NCBI GenBank assembly: GCA_964467845.1
Contig: CAYXTQ010000001.1
Coordinates: 1-49,463, forward strand
Length of the DNA: 49,463 nucleotides
Direction: 5' to 3'
From: an uncultured Methanosarcinales archaeon
GTDB lineage: Archaea > Nanobdellota > Nanobdellia > Woesearchaeales > CAYXTQ01
In this document: positions 5,601 to 49,463 of the stretch, in pieces
Layout: each line of letters begins with the position of its first letter
How positions within the stretch are numbered: the first letter of the stretch is position 1
Program-made: the position numbers and the translations under genes
Notes under the pieces: generated by a model
What the model was told of the DNA's origin: nothing
Database searches by the model: none
The model's input: the letters and a program-made list of their open reading frames with translations, nothing else

Positions 5601-5738
5601 GATAGCTGGAAATGTGCATGTAATAAAGCTTCTTGGAAAGAACAATGTGAAGATGAAAGCTTCTTGACATGTGTTACTGGACATTGTCCTGAAGATATGA
5701 ATATGTACTGTTGTGATATGGTGGGATTGTTAGGATAA
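2700..5738 (+). CDS. Large polytopic membrane protein: Lys-rich cytoplasmic N-terminus, ~7-8 TM helices, ectodomain homologous to the three downstream lipoproteins, two FEPK..KCV repeats, Thr/Gly linker, 12-Cys C-terminal tail
   Basis: 1012-aa ORF with a GAGGT SD 7 nt upstream. The hydrophobic block covers about residues 145-340 (nt ~3130-3720). The shared module covers about residues 395-685. The repeats are YFEPKKPSMKDEIKCV and FFEPKNAPADKDLKCV. The linker is STETTTTGSGGTGTSS, and the last ~90 residues hold 12 Cys. Confidence 0.8.
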   Translation: MAERSVDEEAKRIARILEKRGFAPDKIKKKVDEYKNRPKEDISVIRKSNESLDNWKKRLLKKYEKDTSGKFVRKQPAQVIPGIQRLSQEEKKLDKEKRETAKAQQKTAVIQKKVELEKERGLRNPFLKFGQRLNNISQEPTGRLMFFFAIVLWIFDMALGFSGINYEFFLNIFRNPSSAGSLIRIAWNVITLFIFGFIIWRIIFNRPEKNELIALGLMLETFNIVFSLGGFNLMLLAHLVFSTCFLLFVLLPYYTYQGKKQLAYWYTMGFIIIDFFLFPYLSYYYTKTSNIRGAFPVWVVITLYYTLKLKRSRLLGFVSFFLIMFYLFAFAQPLFGGLDVGLAGMQTENMGFKAIGGIGAKAFANAKLAFKNVGKGIQESYNESISYATGDYYTGRVDRNVKEPLGVYITNIETADPEVYEDEAIEIWAILRAKSIEEPIDSIKVQCIADKDTIKEKPGKSKVSEFNNFIDEEEDIDCKFEENDLEAGSHLITFTAEFDFTTLAYLKTYFIDDERLKALKREGIDVFKEYGITDKNPIAVYTNGPVGIGMETKTPPIGISKDYDSTPKFGITIENKWKGKITEIKDLIIYLPEGIELDDNCDEAFEKIETREYILDGYTAYKMIDAVKESKEWKDIELYKSRNCRLNIKDRNKILGDTPISTKYIKARIKYVYNSQESININVQTPKGFNVYFEPKKPSMKDEIKCVASHSDAYVIMAPFYIYKEKEGYVDEEERWDEIVNIEVECGSKENKCEYPIPKAGLKRGDKIKCKVYKAKLSNNVEETDSAVVEIQNSAPEITAFFEPKNAPADKDLKCVGVIKDADGDNEFKMIYEVKNNNERLSYDKLETKWINNQFEILIKKENFKEGDKTECKMTVKDIPSKGESKYSEPKEITIIIGKSTETTTTGSGGTGTSSNLYADCNLEENHGHACRGSTKRNCYYYKDKKIGECLTECEFLGKTGTHPKIKDSWKCACNKASWKEQCEDESFLTCVTGHCPEDMNMYCCDMVGLLG

Positions 5739-5743
5739 TAAAA

Positions 5744-6670
5744 ATGCAAAAAAAAATATTACTATTGATTTTAATCATAATTTTTATCTCAGGTTGTGAT
5801 AGGTTTTCTCCTAATAAAGGGTCTATAAGTGATGTTAATGTTCACACAGGAACCTCTGCCTTAGAGATGGAATTTCTAAAAGACAGTCCGCCAAACGATA
5901 TTTATGAAGACCAAACTTTTAAAGCAGCTGTTTTATTACAAAATAAAGGTGCTTTTGACATAAAAAAAGGTTATCTGTTAATAGGTGTAGAGGAAGATTA
6001 CATGGAACTTTTATATGAAAGATATGGCAAAAAAATAGATTTACAATTAGAAGGAAAATCTATTAAAAACCCCGTAGGAGAAGAAAAAATAGAGGAATTT
6101 GTACTAAAAGCAAAAAAAATAGATCCTCAAACCCAGGAACACGATAGTTCAATTTATATAACATCATGTTATGAGTACAGAACAGAGTTATCTGAAACAG
6201 TATGCATAGATACTGATGTTTATAATGTAAAACCTATGGAAAAAGTATGCACAGTAAAGGATATTTCACTTATCTCACAGGGTGCTCCTGTTGCAGTTAC
6301 AAAAATTGAAGAAAGGATTTCTTCAAGTGAGAACGGAGAAATTATAATCCCTGAATTTACAGTATACATTGACAATAAAGGTAAAGGTGAGGTAATAGAC
6401 ATTAGTAAAATAGATGATGTTTGCTCTTCAAAGTCTTTAAATAGCGAGGATATAAACAAATTAAAGATAGAAGCTTACTTATCTGGCATTCCATTAGAAT
6501 GTAATCCTAATGAATTAAAGTTAAAAAAGAAGCAAGATAAAGTAATTTGTTCTTTAAAGGAAGGTGTTAAAAAGGATGAGCCTGCTTTTACAACTTTGTT
6601 ATCAGTAGTACTAAATTATGGTTATACCCAAACAATATCTAAAAAGATTACAATAAAAAAAAGTTATTAA
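5744..6670 (+). CDS. Predicted lipoprotein, paralog 1 of the two-domain surface module
   Basis: 308 aa. The signal peptide is MQKKILLLILIIIFISGC with lipobox ISGC. It shares the ordered motifs GTSALEMEFLKDSPPNDIY, QNKG, SCYEYRTELSETVCID, QGAPVAVTKIE, IDNKGKG and LNYGYTQ with paralogs 2 and 3. Confidence 0.8.
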   Translation: MQKKILLLILIIIFISGCDRFSPNKGSISDVNVHTGTSALEMEFLKDSPPNDIYEDQTFKAAVLLQNKGAFDIKKGYLLIGVEEDYMELLYERYGKKIDLQLEGKSIKNPVGEEKIEEFVLKAKKIDPQTQEHDSSIYITSCYEYRTELSETVCIDTDVYNVKPMEKVCTVKDISLISQGAPVAVTKIEERISSSENGEIIIPEFTVYIDNKGKGEVIDISKIDDVCSSKSLNSEDINKLKIEAYLSGIPLECNPNELKLKKKQDKVICSLKEGVKKDEPAFTTLLSVVLNYGYTQTISKKITIKKSY

Positions 6671-6689: not shown

Positions 6690-7673
6690 ATGTTACTTAA
6701 TAAACCCATTATGAAAGAAACGAAGAAATTTGTATTCTTAATTTGCTTTTTTTTAATTATATTATTTATCACAAGCTGTACTCCTCGAGGCTATAATCCT
6801 GAAGTTAAAGAAACATATTTTATTGGAACAGAAGGTTTATTTATGAGATTTATAAAGAACGCCCCGCCTTATAAAGTATATGTAGGAGATAAAATAGATA
6901 TTACAGTTGAATTGTGGAACAGAGGCGCATGGCCTGATAGTGACGTTTTTGAAGGTTTCTTGGTAATAAGTGGTTTTGATTTGAGTGCTATAAATGGTGT
7001 TTGGGAGAAAGGTAATGCAGTATCTGTCTTAATACCTGCAAATTTGCAAGGTAAAAGTCAATTTAATCCTGAAGGTGGTTATGCTACACTAACATACGAG
7101 GATATAGACGGCGTAACTGTGCCTTTTGATGCTGATAGATATCCAGCAGAGATTTTAGTTACATCTTGCTATAGGTATAAAACATTCGCCAGACCAAGAA
7201 TCTGTATTGATCCTGACCCATATTCAATTGTTGCAGAAGACAAAGTCTGTCATGTAGATGATGAAGGAGAAATATCTGTTGAAGCTGGTGGCCAGGGTGC
7301 TCCAATAGCTGTGACAAGTGTTAGACAAGAAGTTGGTGCTGATAGAATCTACTTTAGGATATATGTCTCAAATGTTGGTGGTGGCCGAGTTATAGAACCT
7401 AATGCCTATAACTTTTGTCCTTTTGATTTAGAGAATGATGAAATTAATAAAGTATATGCAACAGTAACTCTACCCCATGATTCAAATCCTGTATGCACAC
7501 CAAGAGGAGATCCTTCTGATCCTATAAGACTGCAAGATGGCCGCGGCTATATGTTCTGTAGTTTTACCCTACCATCTACTGGCACTGCTTATTGGTCCCA
7601 ATTACACATAATCCTAGATTATGTTTATTCTTCATCTATTAAGACAAGAGTAGATGTCGTAAATCTTAGATAA
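6690..7673 (+). CDS. Predicted lipoprotein, paralog 2 of the two-domain surface module
   Basis: 327 aa. The hydrophobic signal ends in lipobox ITSC. Motifs are GTEGLFMRFIKNAPPYKVY, WNRG, SCYRYKTFARPRICID, QGAPIAVTSVRQE, VSNVGGG and LDYVYSS. An alternative ATG at 6720 (MKETKKF) is possible. Confidence 0.8.
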   Translation: MLLNKPIMKETKKFVFLICFFLIILFITSCTPRGYNPEVKETYFIGTEGLFMRFIKNAPPYKVYVGDKIDITVELWNRGAWPDSDVFEGFLVISGFDLSAINGVWEKGNAVSVLIPANLQGKSQFNPEGGYATLTYEDIDGVTVPFDADRYPAEILVTSCYRYKTFARPRICIDPDPYSIVAEDKVCHVDDEGEISVEAGGQGAPIAVTSVRQEVGADRIYFRIYVSNVGGGRVIEPNAYNFCPFDLENDEINKVYATVTLPHDSNPVCTPRGDPSDPIRLQDGRGYMFCSFTLPSTGTAYWSQLHIILDYVYSSSIKTRVDVVNLR

Positions 7674-7825: not shown

Positions 7826-8803
7826 ATGAAAAAAGTTTTGATTTTGATTGGTTTATTATTATTTATAGTTGGTTGCGCTGAAGAGAAAGGAAAAGATGTT
7901 GGACCAAAAGAAACCCCTTTTGTTGGAGGTAAAACAGCTTTGGCTATGTCTTTTATAGAAGGTGCCCCTCCAGATGAAATTTTTGACAATGGACAATATC
8001 CTTTCTCTATTATCATAAAATTGGATAATAAAGGTGAAGATGACATTAGTGCTGGAGAAGGTTATATAAAAATAGTCGGTATTAATCCAACAGATTTTGG
8101 TAAAACGTCTGCTGACTTAAAACAAGATATTCCAGAAGATATTAAAGGAACAAGAAAAAATGCTGAAGGCGATATTGTTAATGGAGATACTATTATTATG
8201 GAATTTAATGATTTTAACTATTTGCCTGATGTGCAAGGTAACTTTGATGGTCCTAGAATAAGGCCAGAATTATGCTATGACTATGAAACAAAAACCTCTA
8301 CGCAAATTTGTGTTAAAAGTGATTTACTGCATGACTTTGAAACAAAAGAAATATGCAGTGTTAGTGGTGATAAAATAACCTATAACTCTGGTAGCCCAAT
8401 GCAGATAACAGAGTTCAAAGAAGCTCCTTTAGGCTCTGATAAAATACAAGTTAGTTTTAAGATAGAACACGTTGGTGATATTAATGACAGGTTCTTTAAG
8501 CAAGGAACAGAATGCAATTATAAAGTAACCAACCTTGATAAAAATAAGGTGTGGGTTGAAGTAACCTCCGACATTAACGGCAAGAAAGCTTCATGCTCTG
8601 GTTTACAAGAAGCTACTGCAGATAATTCTGCTGGTTATGTAACTTTATGGGACATGAAACCAAGAACAGTTGTTTGCAGCGTAGATATTGGTGATGTAGA
8701 AGGCATCTTTGAAGAATTATTTACAGTCAGCTTAAAGTATAGATATATGCAGTTTATAGAAAAGGGTATTTTAGTTAAGGATGTTTCTGCAGGCACAGAA
8801 TAG
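7826..8803 (+). CDS. Predicted lipoprotein, paralog 3 of the two-domain surface module
   Basis: 325 aa. The signal is MKKVLILIGLLLFIVGC with lipobox IVGC, and a GGAGG SD lies 8 nt upstream. Motifs are GKTALAMSFIEGAPPDEIF, DNKG, LCYDYETKTSTQICV, SGSPMQITEFKE, IEHVGD and LKYRYMQ. Confidence 0.8.
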   Translation: MKKVLILIGLLLFIVGCAEEKGKDVGPKETPFVGGKTALAMSFIEGAPPDEIFDNGQYPFSIIIKLDNKGEDDISAGEGYIKIVGINPTDFGKTSADLKQDIPEDIKGTRKNAEGDIVNGDTIIMEFNDFNYLPDVQGNFDGPRIRPELCYDYETKTSTQICVKSDLLHDFETKEICSVSGDKITYNSGSPMQITEFKEAPLGSDKIQVSFKIEHVGDINDRFFKQGTECNYKVTNLDKNKVWVEVTSDINGKKASCSGLQEATADNSAGYVTLWDMKPRTVVCSVDIGDVEGIFEELFTVSLKYRYMQFIEKGILVKDVSAGTE

Positions 8804-22418: not shown

Positions 22419-22435
22419 GAAAATCGTAGATTTTC
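22419..22435. other. GAAAATC-GTA-GATTTTC hairpin between the wHTH gene and fen
   Basis: Read directly. An outer TGGG/CCCA pairing is possible. Confidence 0.6.
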
Positions 22436-40271: not shown

Positions 40272-41366
40272 ATGAAAATAACCTTAAGTTTAATAAAAGC
40301 AGATATAGGTTCTATTGGAGGTCATATTAAACCAAGTAAAAAAGTTATTGAAAGGGTTAGAGATTTTGTTAAAAACAGCAAATCAATAATTGATAGTTAT
40401 GTTTTTCATACAGGAGATGATATTTCTATATTAATGACGCACACAAAAGGAGAAAGTAATGAAGAAATACATAAACTCGCTTGGGATGCATTCACAGAAG
40501 GAACAGAGGTTGCAAAAGAGCAAGGACTTTATGGAGCAGGACAGGACTTATTAAAAGATTCTTTTTCAGGAAATGTAAAAGGAATGGGTCCAGCAGTAGC
40601 TGAGTTAGAGTTTGAAGAACGCCCAAATGAACCGTTTGTAGTTTTCGCAGCAGACAAAACAGATCCAGGTGCTTATAACTTACCATTATATCTTGGCTTT
40701 GTTGATCCAATGCACAACTCTGGCTTAATCTTAAGTCCAAAAATGAAAAAAGGATTTAAATTTTTAATAATGGATGTAGCATATACAAAAGGAGACAGAA
40801 TTATTGAGCTAAATGCTCCAGAAGAATTATATGATATTGCTTGCTTGTTAAGGGAAACAGACCGCTATGTTATAGAAAAAGTCTTTTCAAGAACAACAAA
40901 TGGGCAAGCAGCAGCTGTTTCTACAACAAGATTGCACAACATTGCAGGAGTTTATACTGGAAAGGATGATCCAATTATGATTGCTCGTACTCAAGGAGAA
41001 TTTCCAGCAACAGGAGAACTTTTAAGCCCATACGAAACATGTCATTTTGTTTCTGGTTTTATGAGAGGAAGTCATACAGGACCTTTAATGCCTGTAAGGC
41101 ATAATGCTACTATAAGTTTTTTTGATGGGCCTCCAATAGTTGGTGCTATTGGCTTTTGTGTTCATAACGGCAAACTAACAGAACCTGTTGATTTATTTGA
41201 CCATCATTTCTGGGAGTTTGTTAGGGACAAGGCAGCACACAAGGCAATCAGCATAAGAGAGCAAGGCTTTTTCGGCAATGCAATGCTAGGAATGAATGAA
41301 TTGGAATATGGAGGCATTAAAGAAAAATTAAAAAGCCTAGAGCCAAAATTCAAAATAAGAAAGTAA
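40272..41366 (+). CDS. fbp: Bifunctional fructose-1,6-bisphosphate aldolase/phosphatase (class V FBPase)
   Basis: 364 aa. The N-terminus ITLSLIKADIGSIGGH is diagnostic of the archaeal FBP aldolase/phosphatase family. Confidence 0.9.
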   Translation: MKITLSLIKADIGSIGGHIKPSKKVIERVRDFVKNSKSIIDSYVFHTGDDISILMTHTKGESNEEIHKLAWDAFTEGTEVAKEQGLYGAGQDLLKDSFSGNVKGMGPAVAELEFEERPNEPFVVFAADKTDPGAYNLPLYLGFVDPMHNSGLILSPKMKKGFKFLIMDVAYTKGDRIIELNAPEELYDIACLLRETDRYVIEKVFSRTTNGQAAAVSTTRLHNIAGVYTGKDDPIMIARTQGEFPATGELLSPYETCHFVSGFMRGSHTGPLMPVRHNATISFFDGPPIVGAIGFCVHNGKLTEPVDLFDHHFWEFVRDKAAHKAISIREQGFFGNAMLGMNELEYGGIKEKLKSLEPKFKIRK

Positions 41367-41367
41367 A

Positions 41368-42216
41368 ATGTTTGCTTCAATGAAAGGGGTTTTAGTTAAA
41401 GCTTACAGAAAAAAATATGCTGTTGGCGCATTTAACTTTTCCACAATTGAAATTTTGAATGCAATTTTTCAAGCTAGTTTAAATACAAAATCAGACATAA
41501 TAATAAGCACTTCTGAAGGCGAATTAAATCATTTTGGTATAGAAAATGCGGTTGCAATTGTAAAATCTCTGGGTAATAGAACAAAAAATAATCTTACATT
41601 GCATTTAGACCACGGTAAAAGTTTTGAAATAGTAAAACATTGTATTAAAGCAGGATATCCTAGTGTTCATATTGATGCTTCTAGTAAAGATTTCAAAGAA
41701 AACATAAAATTAACAAAAAAAGTTGTTGATTTTGCAAAAAATAAAGTCTGGGTTGAAGGAGAACTTGGCAGCATAAGTGGAAGTTCAACATTGCACGATC
41801 AAACTTATAGCGAAATAGTGAAAGAAGAATTTTTGACAAATCCAGATTTGGCAAAAGAATTTGTAGAAAAAACAAATATAGATACATTAGCAGTTTCTGT
41901 TGGTAATGTTCATGGTATTTGGAAAGGCCTGCCTAAACTTGATTTTAACAGATTAAAAAAAATACATGAAAAAGTAAAGATTCCTTTAGTTTTGCATGGT
42001 GGCTCAGGAATTCCGGATAAAGACGTAAGACAAGCTATAAAGTTCGGAATTGCAAAAATAAATGTTAACACAGAATTAAGAGTTGCATTTGCAAACTCTT
42101 TAAGAGAATCCTTAAATAAAAACCCAAAAGAAAATGTTCCTTACAATATATTAAATTCAACAATTCCTGCTGTTCAAGAAGTTGTGAAAAAAAAAATAAA
42201 ATTGTTTAAAGGGTGA
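41368..42216 (+). CDS. fba: Class II (metal-dependent) fructose/tagatose-bisphosphate aldolase family protein
   Basis: 282 aa with YAVGAFNF, LHLDHG, HIDAS, GELG, VLHGGSG and INVNTEL blocks of the F_bP_aldolase family. Confidence 0.8.
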   Translation: MFASMKGVLVKAYRKKYAVGAFNFSTIEILNAIFQASLNTKSDIIISTSEGELNHFGIENAVAIVKSLGNRTKNNLTLHLDHGKSFEIVKHCIKAGYPSVHIDASSKDFKENIKLTKKVVDFAKNKVWVEGELGSISGSSTLHDQTYSEIVKEEFLTNPDLAKEFVEKTNIDTLAVSVGNVHGIWKGLPKLDFNRLKKIHEKVKIPLVLHGGSGIPDKDVRQAIKFGIAKINVNTELRVAFANSLRESLNKNPKENVPYNILNSTIPAVQEVVKKKIKLFKG

Positions 42217-42220
42217 TAGT

Positions 42221-43231
42221 ATGGCAATAAAGGTTGGTGTTATAGGTTATGGAACTATTGGCAAAAGAGTAGCTGATGCTGTTGTACTACAAAAAGATAT
42301 GAAACTTGTTGGAATAACTGCACACAACTATAATTGGAGAATTAAAATAGCAAATGATCGTAAATTTAAGATATTTTCTTCAGATGGAAAAGAACTTTTT
42401 GAACCTTATGGAATAAAAATCGAAGGAAGCACTAATGATTTAATACAAGAATGTGATGTTATAGTAGATTGCACTCCAAAAAAAGTCGGCAAAGAAAACA
42501 AGGAAAAATATTATTTGCCAAATAAGGTTAAAGCATTATTCCAAGGTGGGGAAAAGCCCGATGTAGCACAAGCAAGTTTTGTTGCACAATGCAACTATAA
42601 AGAAGCCTTAAACAAAGATTATATTAGGGTAGTTAGCTGTAATACAACGGGCTTGTGCAGAACTTTAAATGCTGTTGACAAGGAATATGGTGTTGAAGAA
42701 GTGCACGCCACTATGATACGTCGTGGTGCAGATCCTTGGGACATACACCACGGACCAATTAATGCAATAGTTCCTGTTTTGGAGCTGCCCTCTCATCATG
42801 GTCCAGATGTTAGAACTGTCTTGCATAATTTAGAAATTTTTACAACAGCAATTTCAGTTTCAAGCACATTAATGCATATGCATAATCTAATAGTTGATTG
42901 TAAAAAAGCGCCGACAGTAGATGGTGTTTTAAACTTATTTGATAAAACTACAAGGGTAAGATTAGTTGATAACGCCTCTATGATAAGATCAACTGCAGAA
43001 ATTATGGAATATGCTAAAGATCTTGGCAGGGATACTAGAGGAGATATGCCTGAAATCTGTATTTGGAGAGAAGGAGTTGGTGCTTACAAGAAAAAGTTAC
43101 TGTACATGCAGGCAATACACCAGGAAAGTGATGTTATTCCTGAAAACATTGATGCACTTAGGGCAGTTATGGGTTTCGAGGATGGAGAAAAAAGCATTCA
43201 ACTGACAAATAAAAGCTTAAAGATTAAATAA
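42221..43231 (+). CDS. gap: Archaeal-type glyceraldehyde-3-phosphate dehydrogenase
   Basis: 336 aa with the N-terminus IKVGVIGYGTIGKRVA, catalytic SCNTTGL and the HHGPDV motif. Confidence 0.9.
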   Translation: MAIKVGVIGYGTIGKRVADAVVLQKDMKLVGITAHNYNWRIKIANDRKFKIFSSDGKELFEPYGIKIEGSTNDLIQECDVIVDCTPKKVGKENKEKYYLPNKVKALFQGGEKPDVAQASFVAQCNYKEALNKDYIRVVSCNTTGLCRTLNAVDKEYGVEEVHATMIRRGADPWDIHHGPINAIVPVLELPSHHGPDVRTVLHNLEIFTTAISVSSTLMHMHNLIVDCKKAPTVDGVLNLFDKTTRVRLVDNASMIRSTAEIMEYAKDLGRDTRGDMPEICIWREGVGAYKKKLLYMQAIHQESDVIPENIDALRAVMGFEDGEKSIQLTNKSLKIK

Positions 43232-43301: not shown

Positions 43302-43907
43302 ATGTTTGCTGATATTGTTTTTCCTAGAGATAATGAGAGGAAATTAATTAATATGGCTGTGAGGTTAGGTTATTCTACTTTATATCTTATTTATGATTTT
43401 AAAGAAAATTTTGATAAAAAAAAAATAGAGGAACTAAGTGAAGATACAGACATTAAAATCAAGATGGGGTTTAAAACAGACATTAAGAATATTCAAAAAT
43501 TCAAGAGATTTGGTTTTACAGTAATAGAAGCAACTGATAAAAGCAGGCATATAATAGAAAAATGCAAGCCAAACTTAATTTACAACTTAGAATTAATTGG
43601 AAAAAAAGATTTTATCCATCATAGGAATAGTGGCTTAAATCAGGTTTTGTGTAAGTTGGCTAATAAAAACAAGGTTATTGTTGGCATCAATTTTAATAAT
43701 TTTTTAAAAGAAACAAAATTAAGAAAAGACATAATTATTGGGAGAATACAACAAAACATAAAACTTTGCAGAAAATACAAAGTAAAAATGTTGATTGCAA
43801 GCTTCGCCACTACACCCTATGAAATGCGAAATCCTCAGGATTTACTTAGTTTTTGTGTTGTCCTAGGAATGCATCCAAAAGAAGCAAAAGAAAGTTTAAG
43901 TTATTAA
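43302..43907 (+). CDS. rnp3: RNase P protein component 3 (Rpp30-like)
   Basis: 201 aa. The N-terminus FADIVFP....INMAVRLGYS and the alternating beta/alpha pattern fit the p30 TIM-barrel family. Confidence 0.6.
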   Translation: MFADIVFPRDNERKLINMAVRLGYSTLYLIYDFKENFDKKKIEELSEDTDIKIKMGFKTDIKNIQKFKRFGFTVIEATDKSRHIIEKCKPNLIYNLELIGKKDFIHHRNSGLNQVLCKLANKNKVIVGINFNNFLKETKLRKDIIIGRIQQNIKLCRKYKVKMLIASFATTPYEMRNPQDLLSFCVVLGMHPKEAKESLSY

Positions 43908-43922
43908 AAAATCATTATAAAA

Positions 43923-43971
43923 ACACGAAGAAATCGAAGATTTCTTGTGTCCCGAAAATCATAGATTTTCG
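43923..43971. other. Two tandem hairpins 3' of rnp3 (ACACGAAGAAATC-GAA-GATTTCTTGTGT and CGAAAATC-ATA-GATTTTCG)
   Basis: Read directly. They belong to the same GAAA(A)TC-NNN-GAT(T)TTC family seen at 22419, 44243 and 44276. Confidence 0.65.
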
Positions 43972-43973
43972 TG

Positions 43974-44082
43974 AATTCAATAAATAAACTATCAATAAAA
44001 AAAAAAAATCGTTTGGTTCACAAACACATTAAGGCAAACTATGTTTGCCTTAATGATAAGATAACACCAATATTTTTTTTTT
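43974..44082 (+). repeat. Intergenic repeat module R1, copy C (12-bp perfect central stem ATTAAGGCAAAC-TAT-GTTTGCCTTAAT at 44028-44054; A12 upstream, T10 downstream)
   Basis: It aligns with the reverse complement of 127-288. Relative to the preceding gene it has the same orientation as copy A. Confidence 0.75.
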
Positions 44083-44090
44083 AAATTTTA

Positions 44091-44200
44091 AATAATCAAT
44101 GAATTAAAAATAATAAAAAAAAAAACAAAACTGGAACAAGTGCACAATTAATTGTGAATGTTGTATAACACTTAATTGTTTATTGAATATTAGTTAAAAA
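44091..44200 (+). repeat. Intergenic repeat module R2, copy C (contains the perfect 14-bp palindrome CACAATTAATTGTG)
   Basis: It aligns with the reverse complement of 8831-8930. Confidence 0.7.
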
Positions 44201-44242
44201 ATAAAAAATAAAAAGCGATAATTTTAAACAAAGGAAATCGAA

Positions 44243-44337
44243 GATACGAGAAAATCGAAGATTTTCTGTATCTCCTGAAAATCTTGATTTTCATGAGATT
44301 TCCAAGTTTAAAATTCCGAAAATTACTTAAATTTTCG
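44243..44337. other. Three consecutive hairpins upstream of the giant ORF (44243-44272, 44272-44297, 44317-44337)
   Basis: The hairpins are GATACGAGAAAATC-GAA-GATTTTCTGTATC, TGAAAAT-CTTG-ATTTTCA and CGAAAATT-ACTTA-AATTTTCG. Confidence 0.65.
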
Positions 44338-44412
44338 ATAATTTTAAATATCTGTATAAAAGATATCTGAGTATAAGAGAAATAACTATAAAAAAAAAAA
44401 GAGGTTTATTGA

Positions 44413-47400
44413 ATGAATAAAAAAAATAAAAAAGTTTTTTTAATCCTCACAATATTATTAATAATCCTAAGTACGCAAGTTAAACAAATTTATGCGGCCT
44501 CATCATGCAGTGATTGCTCAGAATGTGAAAGATGTGTAACACTACCAACAGGAAGAGAGGGAAATGAATATGATTGTATACCAATGAACACAGGTACATG
44601 TACTACATGTGCTTCTGGTACTTGCAAATGTCAATCTGGTGTTTGTGTTGATTCAACTGGAGCAGGATCAAACGGAGATTATATCATAGATGTTAAATTA
44701 GCGACGAGCTGCTCTGGGTGGAAATCAGCAGGCTCTGGATATGCATCCTTGAATGTATGTTACAAAGAAGGAAGTGCAGCACCTTATCTTGAGGATGTTA
44801 CATATCACGCGAAACATCCTTCAACTTCTTGTACAGGTGTTGCAACATGTCCTAATGGTTATACTGAAGCAGGTAAAATTTACGTATCAAATTCTAAAAT
44901 TTGTTATTGGTTATGTAAAAAAACAGGAAGTTCCCCAAAAGTAATTGATATCAAATATCAACAAAAATATAGTACTCAAAATATCAACCCCCCCATCTGT
45001 CCTAGTGAATACGATCAGCAAGGTATTGAATGGGATGGAACAAACTATTATTTTACTCAACTCTGTGTAAAAAAAGGTAGTGGTATTACTTACTCTTGTA
45101 CAGATCCTGATGGAAATGATATAAGGACAGCTGAAACCGTAACATACGAAGAGAAACAAGGTACAAATGTTATTCAAACAATAACACTAAAAGACACGTG
45201 TGCGCTTCCTAAAGATTATCTTTTTTCTACGCAAAACCCAAACAAACTTCCAGAGACTATATCTTCTGCAGATGGTACAACAATTAAGATTTGGGACGAT
45301 CTTTTAAAAGAAAAATATACCGAAGCAGGAATTACCTCTGCCACTGAAGGAGCCCCATGTAAAAAATTAATAGAGTGGACATGCAAGGATAATAAACCAG
45401 AACCAATAATACATGAATGTGATGTTACTGATTTATTTGCATCATCAGACCAAAAATACGGCTGTTTAGATGGCAAATGTTTTTGGGAAGAAGACATTTT
45501 ATCTGACTCAGCAATTTACGGCTCTTGTAAGGTGTGGATGGGTAAAGCGTGTTTTTCAAGTATGAACCCAGGATCTACACTAACAACATCAGGACCTTAT
45601 TGGTCTCGCTGTTCGCATCATACTGATGAATCTCGCACAAGTCAATGCGAACCTTGTTTTGTATATTGTAATGACCAAAGCAAACCATGTCATAGAGCTA
45701 CACCTTATGATGCTTTACCTTGGGATATAGGTAATAAAGAATGCTGGACAAAAGATAAATGTTCCCCGAACTATCCTCCATGTAAACCTGGAGTAAAGCT
45801 TGGATATGGTACTCCAGATTATTGCCCATATGTTGCACCATACTGTGTTGATGATTGGGATGGTTATACTATAGATACTACTCCTGAAGTTCCAATTTGC
45901 CATATGTGTGACTTTAATAAAGAAACTTGCAGCTTTTGTAACGGCGCTTGGGTCCAACCCAATCAACCAACAGGCACAGTAGGTGTTGTTGAAGGAGGCT
46001 GTTGTGATACAAATTTCTATGACGATTACAAGAAAGAAGGGGGAGTAAGAGGGTCGTATCCAGACTGCGGAAAAACATTTGGAAATGTAATTTGTGATGC
46101 AATGGATTACTCATATCTAGACCCCACCTATATAAGTTCCTGGACAGATAGCGAAGGCCATCCTACTGGAGTTCCAGAAGAAAAAGAACCCCTCCTAAGA
46201 GAAGGAGGTAAATGGTTAGATGCATCAAATGATGTAATAAAAACCTTAAAATGCAACAATATTAATTATCTTTTTGATAATCAAAACTGGCTTAAATCTA
46301 AAGGTGATTGTAGTATTGTAAATTTAAATGGCCATGAATTTTTAGATGTAAAAATAGAAAATTCAAGTGAATCACCCCCAATTACCGGCAATGTTGTTTC
46401 TGATTTAGAATCTATAACTGGCTTTGGTGCAGCTGATGTTCCTCCTTGGAATGACGGCCCAACTTGTGCTAGTGCAGGATGGGGTTGGGCAATATCTGGT
46501 GTTGGCACTGCTGGTGCTGATTATTGTGATGAGGATAATGCTCTTCAACGTCCTCCTCAGGGTGGCCCTTATGCATTAGTTTGTACTGGTGGAGGCACTG
46601 GTTACTTGCTAAGTTCTGCTGTTGGTAGTAGTTGGGGTGGTGACAATCCTGCAACTTGCATTAATTACCTTAATCCAAGTCAAATTATGATACAAGTTAA
46701 TTGTAACGGTATGCCAGTTCCAATTACAGATCAACAAAGGGCAAATGCCAATCAGATTGCCGCTACTGGTAGTAGTGCTAGGATTAGGATTTGTGATAAG
46801 AGTGCAGGCACTTCACCACCACCTGAAGAAAATATAAGCATCAAATCATATTGGGCAGAATGTGCTGGAAACGATGTTGCTTATAATGATGAAAGCACTG
46901 GTGGAAAAAACTTTTTTATTGGAGAACAAGTTTCTTGTAATAATATAACATATTTTTGTTCTGCTAATAACACATGGATTAATGATTTGGATTTTGATAA
47001 AGATACATGTGAAGCAGCAGGTCTTGTATGGATTGGACCAAGCGATACAGAAGGTTATTGTTGTGGAGATGATGGCTTTTATGACACATTTAGCTATTAC
47101 CAGCCCTTTGGAGATGCTTGCTTTAGAGGCCAAGTTTTATTCCATTGCGATCAAATAACTCTTAACCAGATAAGCTATAATTTCGGAGTTTTAAATAAGA
47201 TAATTGGTTTTGGAGTTGAAAACTCTCAATCTGGCTTTGACAATCTTGTAATTATGGACAAGGTATATGGCAACATTTTATACAAAAATAATTTTAGTGA
47301 ATCTTCCCAAATACAAAACTTTCAATCATTAAGTGGAACTTGGCAAATTAAAAATGGCGAATACATTGGCACTATAATAAATGGTTTTGGCATAAGTTTA

Positions 47401-49463
47401 ATACCATGGAACCTTACAAATGATGTAATTGAATTTACTTTAAACACCAAACCCACAATTCCTGCAAAAAACGGTTTAATTGTTTTTGGTTTTGTTGATA
47501 TAAATAATTTCTGGTATGGTGCTGTAAGACCAGACATAAATAGCATAGAATTAGGACAAGTAGTTAATGGCAATAAATATATTTTGTCTAAAGAAACAAT
47601 AAACTTACCCAATCAAGATTTAAAGATTAGAGTTGAAACACAAGATGGCTACGTTAGTTTACTAGTAATACTAGAAAACATAAATGGTGCAATAGTAAAT
47701 GAAAATGGAATCTTATCTTATTGTTCTGATAACGGAGAAAATTACTGTGAAACACGCTGTAGTCAATATTTCTGTTCTTATGAGACCTCTAATTGGGAAT
47801 ATTATTACGGAGAACCAAGAGATAAAGCAAGTAAATGGCCAGGAAAACTACCAGAGAATGGAATAAAAACAGAATGCTGTGAACAAAACCAATGTTGGAA
47901 TGGCACATTTTGCATTACTGACCAATCCAATGACCCAAAAGCAAAACCATATGAAAAATGGAGGTGTGTTAATGGTGAATGGACAGAAGCTTTATTAAAA
48001 TACACATGGGATTTAAAAGAAGAAGGCTATTGTCCTAAAATAGACCAATGCTTAGTTAATCCTTACAGCGTAAACACCAACTTTAACAACGCAAAATACC
48101 TAGACATAGACAACCCTTTAAATAATGATATACAATGCATAAACGATAAGGAGTATATTGGAGATCATTATTGTGAAGATGGTGTTTGGACAACAAGAAC
48201 AAAACTCATTGCTTTACAACTTTTGGACATAACTGAAAATAGTTATGATCCAAATGATTATGTTTTATTCTGTGACAGCTATCAAAATACCTTAAACTAC
48301 TATGATTATGAAATTGTCACAAACTACGGAACCAATAAAGCAATGGATTATATAATAAAGCAAAACAATAAATGCTTACTTCTTGACAAACCAGTTCCTT
48401 GTGTAAACAAATTCTGCGTTTTAAAGTTTAAGAAAACAGATAAAGATTTTGGAGTTGCAATAGGCACTTCCTTAAATAACGAAATTAACAATCCAAATAA
48501 CTATTCCATATTAGAATTATTTGGAAAAAATACTGCTTATTGTGATAGCGTAATAAATAATAATGATGGGCAATTTCATTTTTGTGACCCAAACCAAGAT
48601 ACATGGTACAACAACAAGATAAAAAGTATAATCTATTCAAAAGACACTATTGGTTTGCAAAAAATTATATTTTTTGATAAATTTTTGGACTTTTTAAAAA
48701 ATCCATTTAACAGCATCTTTCATATAATCCTTAATGTAATCAAGCCAAAATATCCTGGAGGAGCTGAATTTGATTACAAATTTATTGATCAAACAAAGGA
48801 TTTCAGTAGATTATATCTAAACAGAAAAGGAGATCAATCAATTAAGGGCATAACGGAAAAAATTAAAGATAAGGAATTTTTGTCAGTAATCTATGAAGGA
48901 TTTAATGCAAACATCTGTACTTCTGTAGATAGATATTGGATGTTGCAGCCAAATCTAGGTGTTATTAGTTGTGATATAAATAATAGCATCTACTATATTG
49001 AAACACAAGCTCCAGGAAGAATGGATATTTGGAAAGATTTGACTTCCAAACTAAGGATAAGAAAAGAAAGTATAACTCCTCCAAAAGAGTGTGAACTCCT
49101 CTCTGCAATATGGACAAACTCAGCTGGCAATCAAATAACACAAACAAATGAGAATAGTGTTGTTTATTTGGAGGTTAAGGGAAATAATAATTGTAATGGC
49201 TTACAAGCAAGCTATAAAATCTATGAAAACGATATTGCAATAGACGATTATATACCTCCAGACCCATCTAGCACCAATTTTATTAATGGCGTTGCTAAAA
49301 CAATCTGGACAGCAAGACAAGTATATGATGGTATTTTAGGAGGTGATCCTGAATTCTACTTTAAAGCATCTGCAGAGGGGTTAGAAATAAAATCTGATGA
49401 CCTTACAGTTTCTAAATATGTATCTATCTGTAATAATAATGGCCAGTGTGAGCCTTTAAATGG
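44413..49463 (+). CDS. Giant secreted/surface Cys-rich protein, 3'-truncated by the window end (more than 1683 aa), with a Cys-free lectin/LamG-like jelly-roll insert
   Basis: It is not in the ORF track. I translated every 60-nt line from 44413 to 49463 in frame and found no stop. A TGA lies immediately upstream in frame, and a GAGGT SD lies 7 nt upstream. The N-terminus MNKKNKKVFLILTILLIILSTQVKQIYA is signal-like. I counted about 86 Cys codons by hand. The Cys-free block at 47161-47700 includes SGTWQIKNGEYIGT...LIVFGFVDINNFWYGAVRP...LKIRVETQDGYVSLLV. Confidence 0.85.
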   Translation, partial: MNKKNKKVFLILTILLIILSTQVKQIYAASSCSDCSECERCVTLPTGREGNEYDCIPMNTGTCTTCASGTCKCQSGVCVDSTGAGSNGDYIIDVKLATSCSGWKSAGSGYASLNVCYKEGSAAPYLEDVTYHAKHPSTSCTGVATCPNGYTEAGKIYVSNSKICYWLCKKTGSSPKVIDIKYQQKYSTQNINPPICPSEYDQQGIEWDGTNYYFTQLCVKKGSGITYSCTDPDGNDIRTAETVTYEEKQGTNVIQTITLKDTCALPKDYLFSTQNPNKLPETISSADGTTIKIWDDLLKEKYTEAGITSATEGAPCKKLIEWTCKDNKPEPIIHECDVTDLFASSDQKYGCLDGKCFWEEDILSDSAIYGSCKVWMGKACFSSMNPGSTLTTSGPYWSRCSHHTDESRTSQCEPCFVYCNDQSKPCHRATPYDALPWDIGNKECWTKDKCSPNYPPCKPGVKLGYGTPDYCPYVAPYCVDDWDGYTIDTTPEVPICHMCDFNKETCSFCNGAWVQPNQPTGTVGVVEGGCCDTNFYDDYKKEGGVRGSYPDCGKTFGNVICDAMDYSYLDPTYISSWTDSEGHPTGVPEEKEPLLREGGKWLDASNDVIKTLKCNNINYLFDNQNWLKSKGDCSIVNLNGHEFLDVKIENSSESPPITGNVVSDLESITGFGAADVPPWNDGPTCASAGWGWAISGVGTAGADYCDEDNALQRPPQGGPYALVCTGGGTGYLLSSAVGSSWGGDNPATCINYLNPSQIMIQVNCNGMPVPITDQQRANANQIAATGSSARIRICDKSAGTSPPPEENISIKSYWAECAGNDVAYNDESTGGKNFFIGEQVSCNNITYFCSANNTWINDLDFDKDTCEAAGLVWIGPSDTEGYCCGDDGFYDTFSYYQPFGDACFRGQVLFHCDQITLNQISYNFGVLNKIIGFGVENSQSGFDNLVIMDKVYGNILYKNNFSESSQIQNFQSLSGTWQIKNGEYIGTIINGFGISLIPWNLTNDVIEFTLNTKPTIPAKNGLIVFGFVDINNFWYGAVRPDINSIELGQVVNGNKYILSKETINLPNQDLKIRVETQDGYVSLLVILENINGAIVNENGILSYCSDNGENYCETRCSQYFCSYETSNWEYYYGEPRDKASKWPGKLPENGIKTECCEQNQCWNGTFCITDQSNDPKAKPYEKWRCVNGEWTEALLKYTWDLKEEGYCPKIDQCLVNPYSVNTNFNNAKYLDIDNPLNNDIQCINDKEYIGDHYCEDGVWTTRTKLIALQLLDITENSYDPNDYVLFCDSYQNTLNYYDYEIVTNYGTNKAMDYIIKQNNKCLLLDKPVPCVNKFCVLKFKKTDKDFGVAIGTSLNNEINNPNNYSILELFGKNTAYCDSVINNNDGQFHFCDPNQDTWYNNKIKSIIYSKDTIGLQKIIFFDKFLDFLKNPFNSIFHIILNVIKPKYPGGAEFDYKFIDQTKDFSRLYLNRKGDQSIKGITEKIKDKEFLSVIYEGFNANICTSVDRYWMLQPNLGVISCDINNSIYYIETQAPGRMDIWKDLTSKLRIRKESITPPKECELLSAIWTNSAGNQITQTNENSVVYLEVKGNNNCNGLQASYKIYENDIAIDDYIPPDPSSTNFINGVAKTIWTARQVYDGILGGDPEFYFKASAEGLEIKSDDLTVSKYVSICNNNGQCEPLN

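What the first reader, a model, noticed from the sequence alone, without database searches (positions are those of the whole stretch)
44413..49463. Unlisted giant ORF (more than 1683 codons, open at the window end) encoding a Cys-rich surface protein
The ORF track shows only short antisense ORFs here. The plus frame starting at ATG 44413 has a GAGGT SD and an in-frame TGA just upstream. It runs without a stop to the last base; I checked every codon. The product has a signal-like N-terminus and about 86 Cys by manual count, often in CxxC, CC and CxC clusters (CSDCSECERC, GGCCD, GYCCGDD, TECCEQNQCWNGTFC). A ~180-aa completely Cys-free block (47161-47700) has strand patterns that look like a concanavalin/LamG-type lectin fold. 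The end of the window shows Ig-like beta-rich sequence. Giant disulfide-rich extracellular proteins are plausible host-adhesion or host-recognition factors in episymbiotic archaea. This one sits behind an unusually structured 505-nt leader region.
Basis: seen in the sequence. Interest (0 to 1): 0.75.

Follow-up and report, generated by a model that had tools for sequence, protein, structure and literature searches.

The report
Giant cysteine-rich DPANN surface protein
The open reading frame is real and encodes the first ~1,680 residues of a secreted, cysteine-rich protein of a Woesearchaeota (DPANN) archaeon. It belongs to a large uncurated family whose conserved core domain is nearly always followed by a gene for a pilin-like protein, so it is probably a cell-surface filament-associated adhesin.

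Summary
ATG 44413 opens a stop-free frame of 1683 codons to the window end. It has a GAGGT ribosome-binding site, an in-frame TGA just upstream, a Sec-type signal peptide, 86 Cys (5.1%) and a 191-aa Cys-free block.

It is not an orphan. An exhaustive HMMER search found 865 relatives. Nearly all share one ~450-aa module (aa ~1104-1550) that has no Pfam or NCBIfam model and no PDB fold match.

In 34 independently fetched loci, a homologous partner with a type-IV-prepilin-like N-terminus lies directly downstream in 21 of 28 testable cases. A second giant Cys-rich protein and 3-5 small pilin-like genes usually follow, and a prepilin peptidase is sometimes adjacent.

The locus sits after RNase P p30 in about 15 deeply diverged Woesearchaeota, as it does here. 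It is therefore a core-genome locus with a hypervariable N-terminal architecture.

The closest relative (L088, 64% identity over 594 aa) implies about 250 more residues, ending in a cohesin domain.

The LamG and Ig-like claims found no support. The hairpin-rich "leader" is real (z = -7.6) but is mostly an insertion missing from the closest relative.

Best reading: a filament- or pilin-docked adhesin, as an inference.

The parts
43908..44335 (.). Hairpin-rich spacer sequence between RNase P p30 and the promoter-proximal region. It is absent from the closest relative. It is probably not part of the gene's transcript leader.
   Evidence: RNA fold z=-7.55 against shuffles. Repeats and palindromes are listed. 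Only window 44336-44394 aligns to L003, whose spacer is ~83 nt. No Rfam family matches.
44336..44394 (+). Conserved promoter-proximal region with a TATA-like TTTTAAATAT (44343-44352). The inferred transcription start lies about 35-40 nt before the ATG.
   Evidence: 82% identity to L003:9004-9062, directly upstream of the ortholog's start. The promoter role is an inference from archaeal promoter geometry.
44401..44405 (+). GAGGT ribosome-binding site 7 nt before the ATG. An in-frame TGA lies at 44410-44412.
   Evidence: Sequence read. The same AAAAAGAGGTT(T)ATTGA-ATG context occurs in L003.
44413..49463 (+). Partial coding sequence (1683 codons, 3' end outside the window) of a secreted Cys-rich multidomain protein. 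Predicted full length is about 1,930 aa.
   Evidence: The length estimate comes from the alignment to L088.
44413..44496 (+). Sec-type signal peptide (aa 1-28), with likely cleavage after IYA.
   Evidence: KD 2.08 over aa 8-26 and no other TM-like segment. Equivalent signal peptides occur in relatives P0002, P0013, P0025 and L003. No signal-peptide predictor was available.
44497..45102 (+). N-terminal Cys-rich region (aa 29-230, 9.4% Cys).
   Evidence: aa 114-234 match the L003 ortholog P0001 (E 2e-16; 39% identity by tblastn).
45295..46362 (+). Block shared with only a few family members (aa 295-650).
   Evidence: phmmer: P0060 E 1e-46, P0134 E 2e-40, P0070 E 7e-22. No Pfam hit.
46345..46848 (+). 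Highly conserved ~165-aa block (aa 645-812; ITGFG..PPWNDGPTC..GGPYALVCTGGGTGYLL), function unknown.
   Evidence: P0013 E 8e-62 and P0025 E 3e-53. No Pfam hit.
46846..47187 (+). Cys-rich 'CCGDD' unit (aa ~812-925). It is a repeat of the Cys-rich unit that opens the module.
   Evidence: Shared by about 36 of the 150 best hits. The module HMM positions 5-59 also hit aa 836-888.
47149..47721 (+). Cys-free, predicted all-beta block (aa 913-1103). It has no detectable homolog and its fold is unresolved.
   Evidence: There are no homologs. Pfam, the LamG HMM and hhalign are all negative. AF2 pLDDT is 25-45.
47722..47997 (+). Cys-rich 'ECCxxxxCWNGxxC' unit that opens the family module (aa 1104-1195).
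   Evidence: Alignment A1. In one subclade this unit ends a separate upstream gene.
47998..49062 (+). Family-defining core domain (aa 1196-1550; DHYCxxGxWTTRTK ... GTSLN ... LTSKLR). It is an alpha/beta fold with no known structural relative.
   Evidence: 865 relatives. 24 columns are invariant, 14 of them Cys. AF2 gives pLDDT 71.5 and pTM 0.71. Foldseek best E is 0.015 with TM 0.21 against PDB, with no hit in BFVD. The PDB profile search is empty. The domain occurs as a stand-alone secreted protein in L093, L096, L098 and L102.
49063..49463 (+). Start of a C-terminal extension (aa 1551-1683), cut by the window end.
   Evidence: 64% identical to the equivalent part of L088, which continues ~250 aa and ends in a Pfam Cohesin domain. 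This segment itself has no Pfam hit.

Best explanation
The gene encodes a Sec-exported, disulfide-stabilised, modular cell-surface protein of a Woesearchaeota-type DPANN archaeon.

Its variable N-terminal two-thirds, and probably a C-terminal cohesin-bearing extension, act as binding modules. These parts are Cys-rich units, a lineage-restricted conserved block and a Cys-free beta block.

The conserved ~355-aa core domain (aa ~1196-1550) is the constant part. I propose that this core domain docks the protein onto the product of the gene that almost always follows it in relatives. That product is a 400-840-aa protein with a type-IV-prepilin-like N-terminus. The adhesin would then be displayed on, or at the base or tip of, a type-4-filament-like structure. 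The small pilin-like proteins encoded further downstream would build that structure.

This resembles how bacterial PilY1/PilC adhesins combine a conserved C-terminal domain with a variable N-terminus and associate with minor pilins.

Shown: a real gene; a signal peptide by inspection; Cys richness; family membership; the gene-pair and cluster conservation; synteny after RNase P p30; rapid architectural turnover.

Inferred: extracellular disulfides, docking to the partner, filament association and host adhesion.
For: - **Gene and export signal.**
- **Family size.** 865 relatives, 292 at E<=1e-30, nearly all through aa ~1093-1550. The module is at the very C-terminus in about 100 of 126 hits.
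- **Family composition.** The best 150 hits have a median of 4.7% Cys. Their accessory domains are PKD, LamG, Disintegrin, SLH, CBM, Big, Cohesin/Dockerin and Hint, all extracellular types.
- **Partner gene.** It is homologous across loci (E 1e-30 to 1e-42). It lies immediately downstream on the same strand in 21 of 28 module genes with at least 600 nt of downstream sequence, and in 18 of 20 when the module is C-terminal. That count includes three near-duplicate locus pairs; collapsing them gives 18 of 25.
- **Partner N-terminus.** The motif [KR][GAS]Q[ILVM]T[ILVM] plus ~20 hydrophobic residues occurs in 16 of 20 partners and in none of 371 unrelated ORFs.
- **Downstream cluster.** A second giant Cys-rich protein and 3-5 small proteins with similar N-termini follow in L087, L093, L099, L104, L105, L115 and L120.
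- **Prepilin peptidase.** An A24 prepilin-peptidase homolog (Arc_PepC E 9e-12; Peptidase_A24 E 0.003, below Pfam's cutoff) lies next to the locus in L083, L086/87, L101 and L121.
- **Core domain as an autonomous unit.** It is secreted on its own in a subclade.
- **Conserved position.** The locus follows RNase P p30 in about 15 loci whose p30 is only 31-46% identical.
- **Fast turnover.** Neighbours are 62-90% identical to L003. The giant protein keeps 39-56% identity over only about a third of its length.
[quoted passage not shown] DPANN dark-matter islands have been read as diverged pilin loci (PMC6393860).
Against: - The window ends inside the gene. The partner and pilin-like genes are therefore inferred from relatives, not seen here. 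tblastn finds no partner in the 44 kb upstream.
- Nothing tests a physical interaction between the core domain and the partner.
- The pilin-like assignment rests on an N-terminal motif only. No Pfam or NCBIfam pilin or class-III-signal model hits the partner or the small genes. Only 5 of 20 partners have the canonical G/A at position -1, and most have Ser.
- I recognised no filament ATPase or platform protein in the flanks held (up to 10 kb each side). Only the P0010, P0085 and P0156 loci carried Pfam annotation; the other flanks were only listed as ORFs, not scanned.
- Seven of 28 testable family genes lack the partner, mostly those with C-terminal extensions. Some carry other anchoring domains such as SLH. 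P0156 sits in an unrelated context.
- The module model is only moderately confident and has no structural analogue, so its fold says nothing about its function.
Confidence: 0.5

Rival explanations
1. It is a general envelope- or S-layer-associated adhesin or structural surface protein that works independently of the pilin-like proteins. The adjacency would reflect only co-regulation of surface-protein genes in one conserved 'surface island'. The core domain would bind the cell's own envelope or a common ligand.
For: Most family members have no membrane anchor and end right after the module. Some members add SLH or cohesin/dockerin domains, which are envelope- or scaffold-binding. Seven of 28 lack the partner. 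No filament ATPase or platform gene was recognised in the flanks.
Against: The partner is adjacent, often with overlapping stop and start codons, across genomes whose p30 is only 31-46% identical. That tightness is more typical of interacting products. The partner, the small genes and the nearby A24 peptidase all point to class-III-signal biology.
Confidence: 0.27
2. It is a secreted effector or enzyme acting on the host envelope, for example lytic or membrane-active. The conserved core domain would be the active part. The pilin-like proteins would form a pseudopilus that exports or positions it, in a type-II-secretion-like way.
For: Large extracellular lytic-transglycosylase proteins are known in Woese/Pacearchaeota (PMC8204110). 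One family member carries a GH123 catalytic domain. The core domain contains a conserved long amphipathic or hydrophobic helix (aa ~1420-1443). The weak top Foldseek hits are the lipid-binding proteins TP0453 and RseB, and they are not significant.
Against: The invariant columns of the core domain are almost all Cys, Trp, Gly and other structural residues, with no recognisable catalytic constellation. There is no Pfam, NCBIfam or PDB similarity to any enzyme. A single-membrane archaeon has no obvious need for a type-II-like export step (own knowledge).
Confidence: 0.1
3. It is a target of a diversity-generating retroelement, or another programmed hypervariation system.
For: DGRs are common in DPANN (own knowledge). 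The protein evolves very fast relative to its neighbours. Its C-terminus, where DGR variable regions usually lie, is outside the window.
Against: No repeat of any part of the gene exists elsewhere in the 49-kb window. None of the window ORFs I scanned hit a reverse-transcriptase Pfam model, though not every ORF was scanned. The closest relative ends in a cohesin domain, not a C-type-lectin or Ig-type DGR variable region. The divergence seen is domain shuffling rather than localised point variation.
Confidence: 0.03
4. It is an artefact: a chance open frame, an assembly chimera or a pseudogene.
For: The region is AT-rich and the gene is cut by the window end. The closest ortholog's gene call was broken, but by a 10-N scaffold gap.
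Against: The chance of such an open frame is about 5e-60. Protein-level homology supports the frame along most of its length. The start context, signal peptide and genomic position are conserved.
Confidence: 0.01

Closest known systems
Large adhesin-like proteins encoded in archaeal type-4-filament (TFF) loci (bioRxiv 10.64898/2026.04.22.720090), and the diverged pilin islands predicted in DPANN genomes (Makarova et al. 2019, PMC6393860)
   Same: A large secreted multidomain protein is encoded next to several proteins with class-III-signal-like N-termini, sometimes beside an A24 prepilin peptidase. The presumed role is adhesion or recognition.
   Different: Those adhesins are described as Ig-fold-rich or PilY-like. 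This family is instead defined by a Cys-rich unit plus an alpha/beta core domain with no Pfam model or PDB fold match. I recognised no ATPase or platform gene near the loci examined.
Bacterial type IV pilus adhesins PilY1/PilC with the minor pilins (own knowledge; PilY is discussed in the same preprint)
   Same: Sec signal, variable N-terminal region, conserved C-terminal domain, and a gene embedded among pilin-like genes. This is the analogy behind the proposed mechanism.
   Different: There is no sequence or fold similarity. The PilY1 C-terminal domain is a beta-propeller, while this core domain is predicted alpha/beta, and Pfam finds no PilC/PilY1 domain. It works like PilY1 at most and is not a member of that family.
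Large extracellular proteins of Woesearchaeota/Pacearchaeota with a lytic-transglycosylase domain (fam00969; Castelle et al. 2021, PMC8204110)
   Same: Same lineages, very large secreted proteins, and a proposed role in attachment to host cells. They belong to the poorly annotated lineage-specific protein families.
   Different: No transglycosylase or any other catalytic domain is detected here. The conserved element is a different, uncharacterised module.
Cohesin-dockerin scaffold proteins (cellulosome-type and non-cellulosomal)
   Same: The closest relative, L088, ends in a Pfam Cohesin domain. One family member has a dockerin. Surface assembly through cohesin-dockerin pairing is therefore plausible.
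   Different: The cohesin is not visible in the window. No glycoside-hydrolase context exists here, and the rest of the architecture is unrelated to scaffoldins.
Giant surface proteins of Nanohaloarchaeota
   Same: Giant secreted proteins of DPANN episymbionts, implicated in host contact.
   Different: As I recall, SPEARE proteins combine protease, adhesion and nuclease domains. None of these is detected here.

Membership tests
Uncurated Woesearchaeota Cys-rich 'core-domain' family (defined here by profile A1) | Match to the ~430-position module (Cys-rich CWNG unit plus the DHYC..WTTRTK..GTSLN..LTSKLR core) | tested here: met
   phmmer with the window protein alone gives 865 hits, the best at E 5e-126. 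The match covers aa 1109-1549 (the window sequence is itself part of A1, so one search is the independent test).
Uncurated Woesearchaeota Cys-rich 'core-domain' family (defined here by profile A1) | N-terminal Sec-type signal peptide and high Cys content | tested here: met
   The family median is 4.7% Cys. The signal peptide was judged by inspection and hydropathy only.
Uncurated Woesearchaeota Cys-rich 'core-domain' family (defined here by profile A1) | Pilin-like partner gene immediately downstream | not testable with these tools
   The gene runs off the window end. The source contig is absent from both contig collections. The partner is present in the two closest relatives, L003 and L088.
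Uncurated Woesearchaeota Cys-rich 'core-domain' family (defined here by profile A1) | Position downstream of RNase P p30 on the same strand | tested here: met
   Window p30 is at 43302-43907. The same arrangement occurs in about 15 independent loci.
LamG / concanavalin-A-like lectin domain (Pfam Laminin_G_3 and relatives) for aa 913-1103 | Profile match to a LamG/ConA-like family | tested here: not met
   Pfam gives nothing at E<=10. A family-derived LamG HMM gives no hit at E<=100. hhalign gives 0.3% probability, equal to shuffles, with the positive control at 99.9%.
LamG / concanavalin-A-like lectin domain (Pfam Laminin_G_3 and relatives) for aa 913-1103 | Beta-jelly-roll fold | tested here: inconclusive
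   The AF2 model, made without homologs, is all-beta but has pLDDT 25-45. Foldseek hits were meaningless.
Ig-like / PKD / Big domains for aa 1551-1683 | Profile match or Ig-like beta-sandwich fold | tested here: inconclusive
   No Pfam hit at E<=10 other than a chance META match at E 0.16. AF2 pLDDT is 30-57. The segment is conserved with L088.
PilY1/PilC type IV pilus adhesins | PilY1/PilC C-terminal beta-propeller domain | tested here: not met
   No Pfam hit. The predicted core is alpha/beta. No PDB fold match.
PilY1/PilC type IV pilus adhesins | Encoded among (minor) pilin genes | tested here: inconclusive
   True for relatives, by motif only. Not visible in the window.
DGR target protein | Reverse transcriptase and template repeat matching a variable region | tested here: not met
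   No repeat of the gene exists in the window. None of the window ORFs I scanned hit an RT model. The 3' end of the gene was not available.
Cohesin-bearing surface scaffold | Pfam Cohesin domain | not testable with these tools
   Present in L088 at E 6e-14. The corresponding region of the window protein lies beyond the window end.

The most novel reading that the evidence does not exclude
The core domain and its pilin-like partner form a previously undescribed adhesin-display system of a type-4-filament kind, specific to Woesearchaeota-type DPANN archaea. It is fixed at one core-genome locus after RNase P p30. Its Cys-rich passenger region is replaced by domain shuffling, and it acts as the main determinant of which host cell the episymbiont can attach to.
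Probability: 0.3. Interest if true: 0.8.

Novelty: new variant of a known kind. Interest (0 to 1): 0.55.

Why it matters
How DPANN archaea recognise and hold on to their hosts is largely unknown, and most of their lineage-specific surface proteins have no annotation. This analysis turns one "hypothetical" giant gene into a defined object with four properties.

- It has at least 865 relatives.
- It has an autonomous core domain of unknown fold.
- It has a conserved partner gene and gene cluster.
- It has a fixed chromosomal address.

That gives experimentalists and structural modellers a concrete pair of proteins to test. It gives comparative genomicists a locus whose variable part can be compared with host range.

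Tried and rejected
**Searches that found nothing**
- The word-index homolog search with the full protein gave 0 hits. The same search with the Cys-free block also gave 0. The first result was misleading, because the exhaustive search found 865 relatives. When seeded with the module alignment, the word index returned only proteins of 820 aa or less. I cannot explain this.
- Pfam and NCBIfam on the whole protein and on six segments found nothing.
- PDB sequence and profile searches found nothing.
- Foldseek of the module model against PDB and BFVD found nothing significant.
- A viral-contig scan for the core domain found nothing.

**Extending the contig**
- Exact end-of-window DNA is absent from the genome and metagenome collections.
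- The neighbouring p30 protein occurs only on two ~1.3-kb ENA contigs.

**Structure prediction of the flanking regions**
- The second structure job (aa 905-1683) gave unusable confidence outside the module. Its fold search was meaningless.

**Ideas rejected or withdrawn**
- Internal repeats or paralogs in the window: none.
- A DGR-style repeat: none.
- Rfam in the spacer: only a sub-threshold FourU match.
- From GAPDH-anchored loci I first concluded that synteny was limited to L003. That was wrong. Anchoring on the family itself showed that the conserved neighbour is p30, not GAPDH.
- I suspected a programmed frameshift or recoded stop in a subclade. It turned out to be gene fission with a new signal peptide.
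- The first attempt to scan metagenomes with the broad alignment A1 failed because it had no conserved stretch.
Full report
**Observation**

The plus-strand frame from ATG 44413 is open for all 1683 codons to the last base of the window. With the local base composition, about 7.8% of codons would be stops, so the chance of such a run is about 5e-60.

GAGGT lies at 44401-44405 and an in-frame TGA at 44410-44412. The next in-frame start is 57 codons downstream.

The product has exactly 86 Cys (5.1%). Every other ORF of at least 180 aa in the window has 0-2.9%.

The longest Cys-free stretch is aa 913-1103 (nt 47149-47721), slightly longer than stated.

The N-terminus has a Lys-rich n-region, a 19-residue hydrophobic core (KD 2.08) and an IYA/AS site. 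No other segment reaches transmembrane hydrophobicity.

The gene was 'unlisted' simply because the ORF lister does not report ORFs that run off the end of the source.

**Organism and context**

The window is archaeal. It holds PolD DP1/DP2, Cdc6, MCM, TBP, archaeal FBPase, class II aldolase, GAPDH and RNase P p30. GC content is 31%.

GAPDH-anchored relatives are Woesearchaeota/Nanoarchaeota MAGs. Some TPA records are titled 'uncultured Methanosarcinales'. The closest is L003, with 79% GAPDH identity.

**Not an orphan**

Pfam, NCBIfam and PDB sequence searches are empty. The word-index protein search returned nothing.

The exhaustive HMMER search with aa 484-1683 found 865 representatives at E<=1e-3, and 292 at E<=1e-30. 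Almost all of them match aa ~1093-1550.

In about 100 of 126 hits this module is the extreme C-terminus. About 24 hits have extensions of 129-1191 aa after it.

The named relatives are all 'hypothetical protein' or 'PKD domain-containing protein' from Woesearchaeota, Nanoarchaeota or one 'Euryarchaeota archaeon SM23-78'. The best 150 hits are 179-2768 aa long, with a median of 4.7% Cys.

**Mosaic architecture**

Local phmmer of the whole protein against the 150 best hits gives this map:

| Residues | Feature | Shared with |
|---|---|---|
| 114-234 | Cys-rich N-terminal region | only the L003 ortholog P0001 |
| 295-650 | block | three proteins |
| 645-812 | very conserved block | two proteins (E 8e-62 and 3e-53) |
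| ~812-925 | 'CCGDD' Cys-rich unit | about 36 hits |
| 913-1103 | Cys-free block | nothing |
| 1104-1550 | family module | essentially all hits |
| 1551-1683 | C-terminal extension | none of the 150 |

The 'CCGDD' unit is a repeat of the unit that opens the module.

Pfam on 32 full-length members finds only extracellular accessory domains. These are PKD, Laminin_G_3, MopE, Disintegrin, SLH, GLUG, Big, PPC, CBM_4_9, Hint, dockerin and GH123.

**The module**

A 23-sequence alignment has 24 invariant columns, 14 of them Cys. Its motifs include ECCxxxxCWNGxxC, DHYCxNGxWTTRTK, NNFCVL, GTSLN and a terminal LTSKLR.

AF2 with a 16-sequence alignment gives pLDDT 71.5 and pTM 0.71. The model has a poorly ordered Cys-rich N-part and an alpha/beta body.

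Foldseek finds nothing significant in PDB (best E 0.015, TM 0.21) or BFVD. The PDB profile search is also empty.

In one subclade (L093/94, L096, L098, L102) the upstream gene ends after the Cys-rich unit. A separate gene with its own signal peptide encodes only profile positions ~90-430. The core domain (giant aa ~1196-1550) is therefore an autonomous secreted unit.

**Conserved partner and cluster**

Neighbourhoods of P0010 and P0085 showed the family gene followed by a 397-533-aa protein, then a ~1830-aa TSP3/Big protein. A small RHH-like ORF overlapped the family gene's start.

L003 has the same downstream gene (714 aa). The three partners are homologous (E 1e-30 to 1e-42).

I then fetched 34 independent metagenomic loci with a core-domain alignment and scored them with module and partner HMMs:

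- Of 28 module genes with at least 600 nt of downstream sequence, 21 have the partner directly downstream on the same strand. The gaps run from -72 to +122 nt, with one case (two near-duplicate loci) at 1160 nt.
- The count is 18 of 20 when the module is C-terminal and 3 of 8 when there is an extension.
- Three locus pairs are near-duplicates. Collapsing them gives 18 of 25.

All partners begin with [KR]-x-[GAS]-Q-[IVL]-T followed by about 20 hydrophobic residues. A regular expression for this motif hits 16 of 20 partners and none of 371 unrelated ORFs. Only 5 of 20 meet the strict G/A(-1) prepilin rule.

Downstream of the partner come a second giant Cys-rich secreted protein (1556-2118 aa) and 3-5 small proteins with similar N-termini. 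This holds in L087, L093, L099, L104, L105, L115 and L120.

An A24 prepilin-peptidase homolog lies next to the locus in L083, L086/87, L101 and L121. It matches Arc_PepC at E 9e-12 and Peptidase_A24 at E 0.003 (below Pfam's cutoff), and it is fused to PMT_2.

Neither the partner nor the small proteins match any Pfam, NCBIfam or PDB entry. I recognised no filament ATPase or platform gene in the flanks. Most flanks were only listed as ORFs and were not scanned.

**Core-genome locus**

An RNase P p30 homolog sits upstream on the same strand of the family gene in about 15 of these loci. It is only 31-46% identical to the window's p30.

The same SpoIIM-OB-fold-MCM-TBP-p30 block as in the window appears in L095, L113, L115/117 and L120. 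The window and L003 differ only in having FBPase-aldolase-GAPDH inserted between TBP and p30.

The locus is therefore old and vertically inherited. The gene itself turns over fast. Between the window and L003 the neighbours are 62-90% identical, while the giant protein keeps 39-56% identity over roughly a third of its length and has a different architecture.

No viral relatives were found.

**How the protein probably ends**

L088 is the closest relative. Giant aa 1087-1673 align to it at 63.8% identity over 594 aa, extension included.

L088 continues about 250 aa beyond the point that corresponds to the window end. It has a Cys-rich linker and a Pfam Cohesin domain (E 6e-14). The partner gene follows, then another Cys-rich secreted ORF.

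By inference, the window protein is about 1,930 aa long and is followed by the same genes.

- **LamG:** there is no support from Pfam, a family-derived LamG HMM or hhalign (0.3%, equal to shuffles; control 99.9%). The AF2 model of that region is too poor to judge. Genuine LamG domains do occupy the same relative position in about 10 family members. A beta-sandwich binding insert there is therefore plausible but unproven.
- **Ig-like end:** this is unresolved.
- **Leader:** the 505-nt spacer folds far better than shuffles (z = -7.55). Only 44336-44394 is conserved with L003, whose spacer is ~83 nt. About 420 nt is therefore an insertion of stacked hairpins, not a conserved 5' UTR.
- **DGR:** there is no template/variable repeat in the window.

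**Interpretation**

The best-supported reading is a secreted, disulfide-rich adhesin. Its conserved core domain pairs with a pilin-like partner, within a cluster of pilin-like genes. This is analogous to PilY1/PilC with the minor pilins. [quoted passage not shown]

Docking, filament association and host binding are all inferences. The main rival is an envelope-associated surface protein that is merely co-located with the pilin-like genes.

The general kind, giant extracellular DPANN proteins, is already known. This family, its core domain and its gene pair are not described in the literature I could search.

Noticed in passing
window 43908-44335 (also 22419-22435): About 420 nt of stacked near-perfect hairpins lie between RNase P p30 and the giant gene's promoter region (fold z=-7.55). 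This sequence is absent from the closest relative. The palindrome GAAAATCnnAGATTTTC occurs three times in the window, against 0.67 expected. It could be a MITE/REP-like insertion or an unknown small RNA. No Rfam family matches.
   Followed up: partly
window 5744-6670, 6690-7673, 7826-8803 (and 2700-5738): Three tandem ORFs of 308-327 aa have lipobox-like N-termini (..ISGC, ..ITSC, ..IVGC) and no Pfam family. A 1012-aa ORF with no Pfam or NCBIfam match lies just upstream. This may be another surface-protein cluster.
   Followed up: partly
L093/L094, L096, L098, L102 (junctions near L093:9920-9960): In one subclade the family gene is split. The upstream gene ends after the Cys-rich CWNG unit, and a new gene with its own signal peptide encodes only the core domain. 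This is gene fission or fusion at a domain boundary.
   Followed up: yes
L083:9864-10004, L087:9858-10004, L003:15127-15273: A 46-49-aa ribbon-helix-helix-like ORF (weak ParD/HicB/VapB matches) overlaps the start codon of Cys-rich giant genes in three loci. It may be a dedicated regulator. No equivalent ORF exists upstream of the window's gene.
   Followed up: partly
L083, L086, L087 (upstream 0-9.7 kb); L101:7338-8498: A cluster of radical-SAM/SPASM genes plus HxsD (a His-Xaa-Ser-system-like peptide maturation set) lies next to the family locus in several genomes.
   Followed up: no
P0013 (aa ~300-440), a family member: One 1902-aa family member contains a Hint/intein-type domain (Pfam PT-HINT, Hint, Intein_splicing) inside its extracellular region.
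   Followed up: no
window 44413-49461 (protein): N-glycosylation sequons (N-x-S/T) are depleted: 9 observed against 19 +/- 3.9 expected from composition. One sequon inside the conserved CWNGT motif is retained across the family.
   Followed up: partly
L003:9083-9130: The closest ortholog's database gene call (P0001, 1100 aa, no signal peptide) is truncated by a 10-N scaffold gap. The real start, with RBS and signal peptide, lies about 195 nt upstream.
   Followed up: yes
window 40272-43231: The FBPase-aldolase-GAPDH trio is inserted between TBP and RNase P p30 in the window and in L003. In other Woesearchaeota loci TBP and p30 are adjacent or nearly so.
   Followed up: partly
tool behaviour: The word-index protein search returned 0 hits for the full-length query, although relatives at up to 57% identity exist. 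When seeded with an alignment it returned only members of 820 aa or less. Long proteins may be under-retrieved by that index.
   Followed up: no
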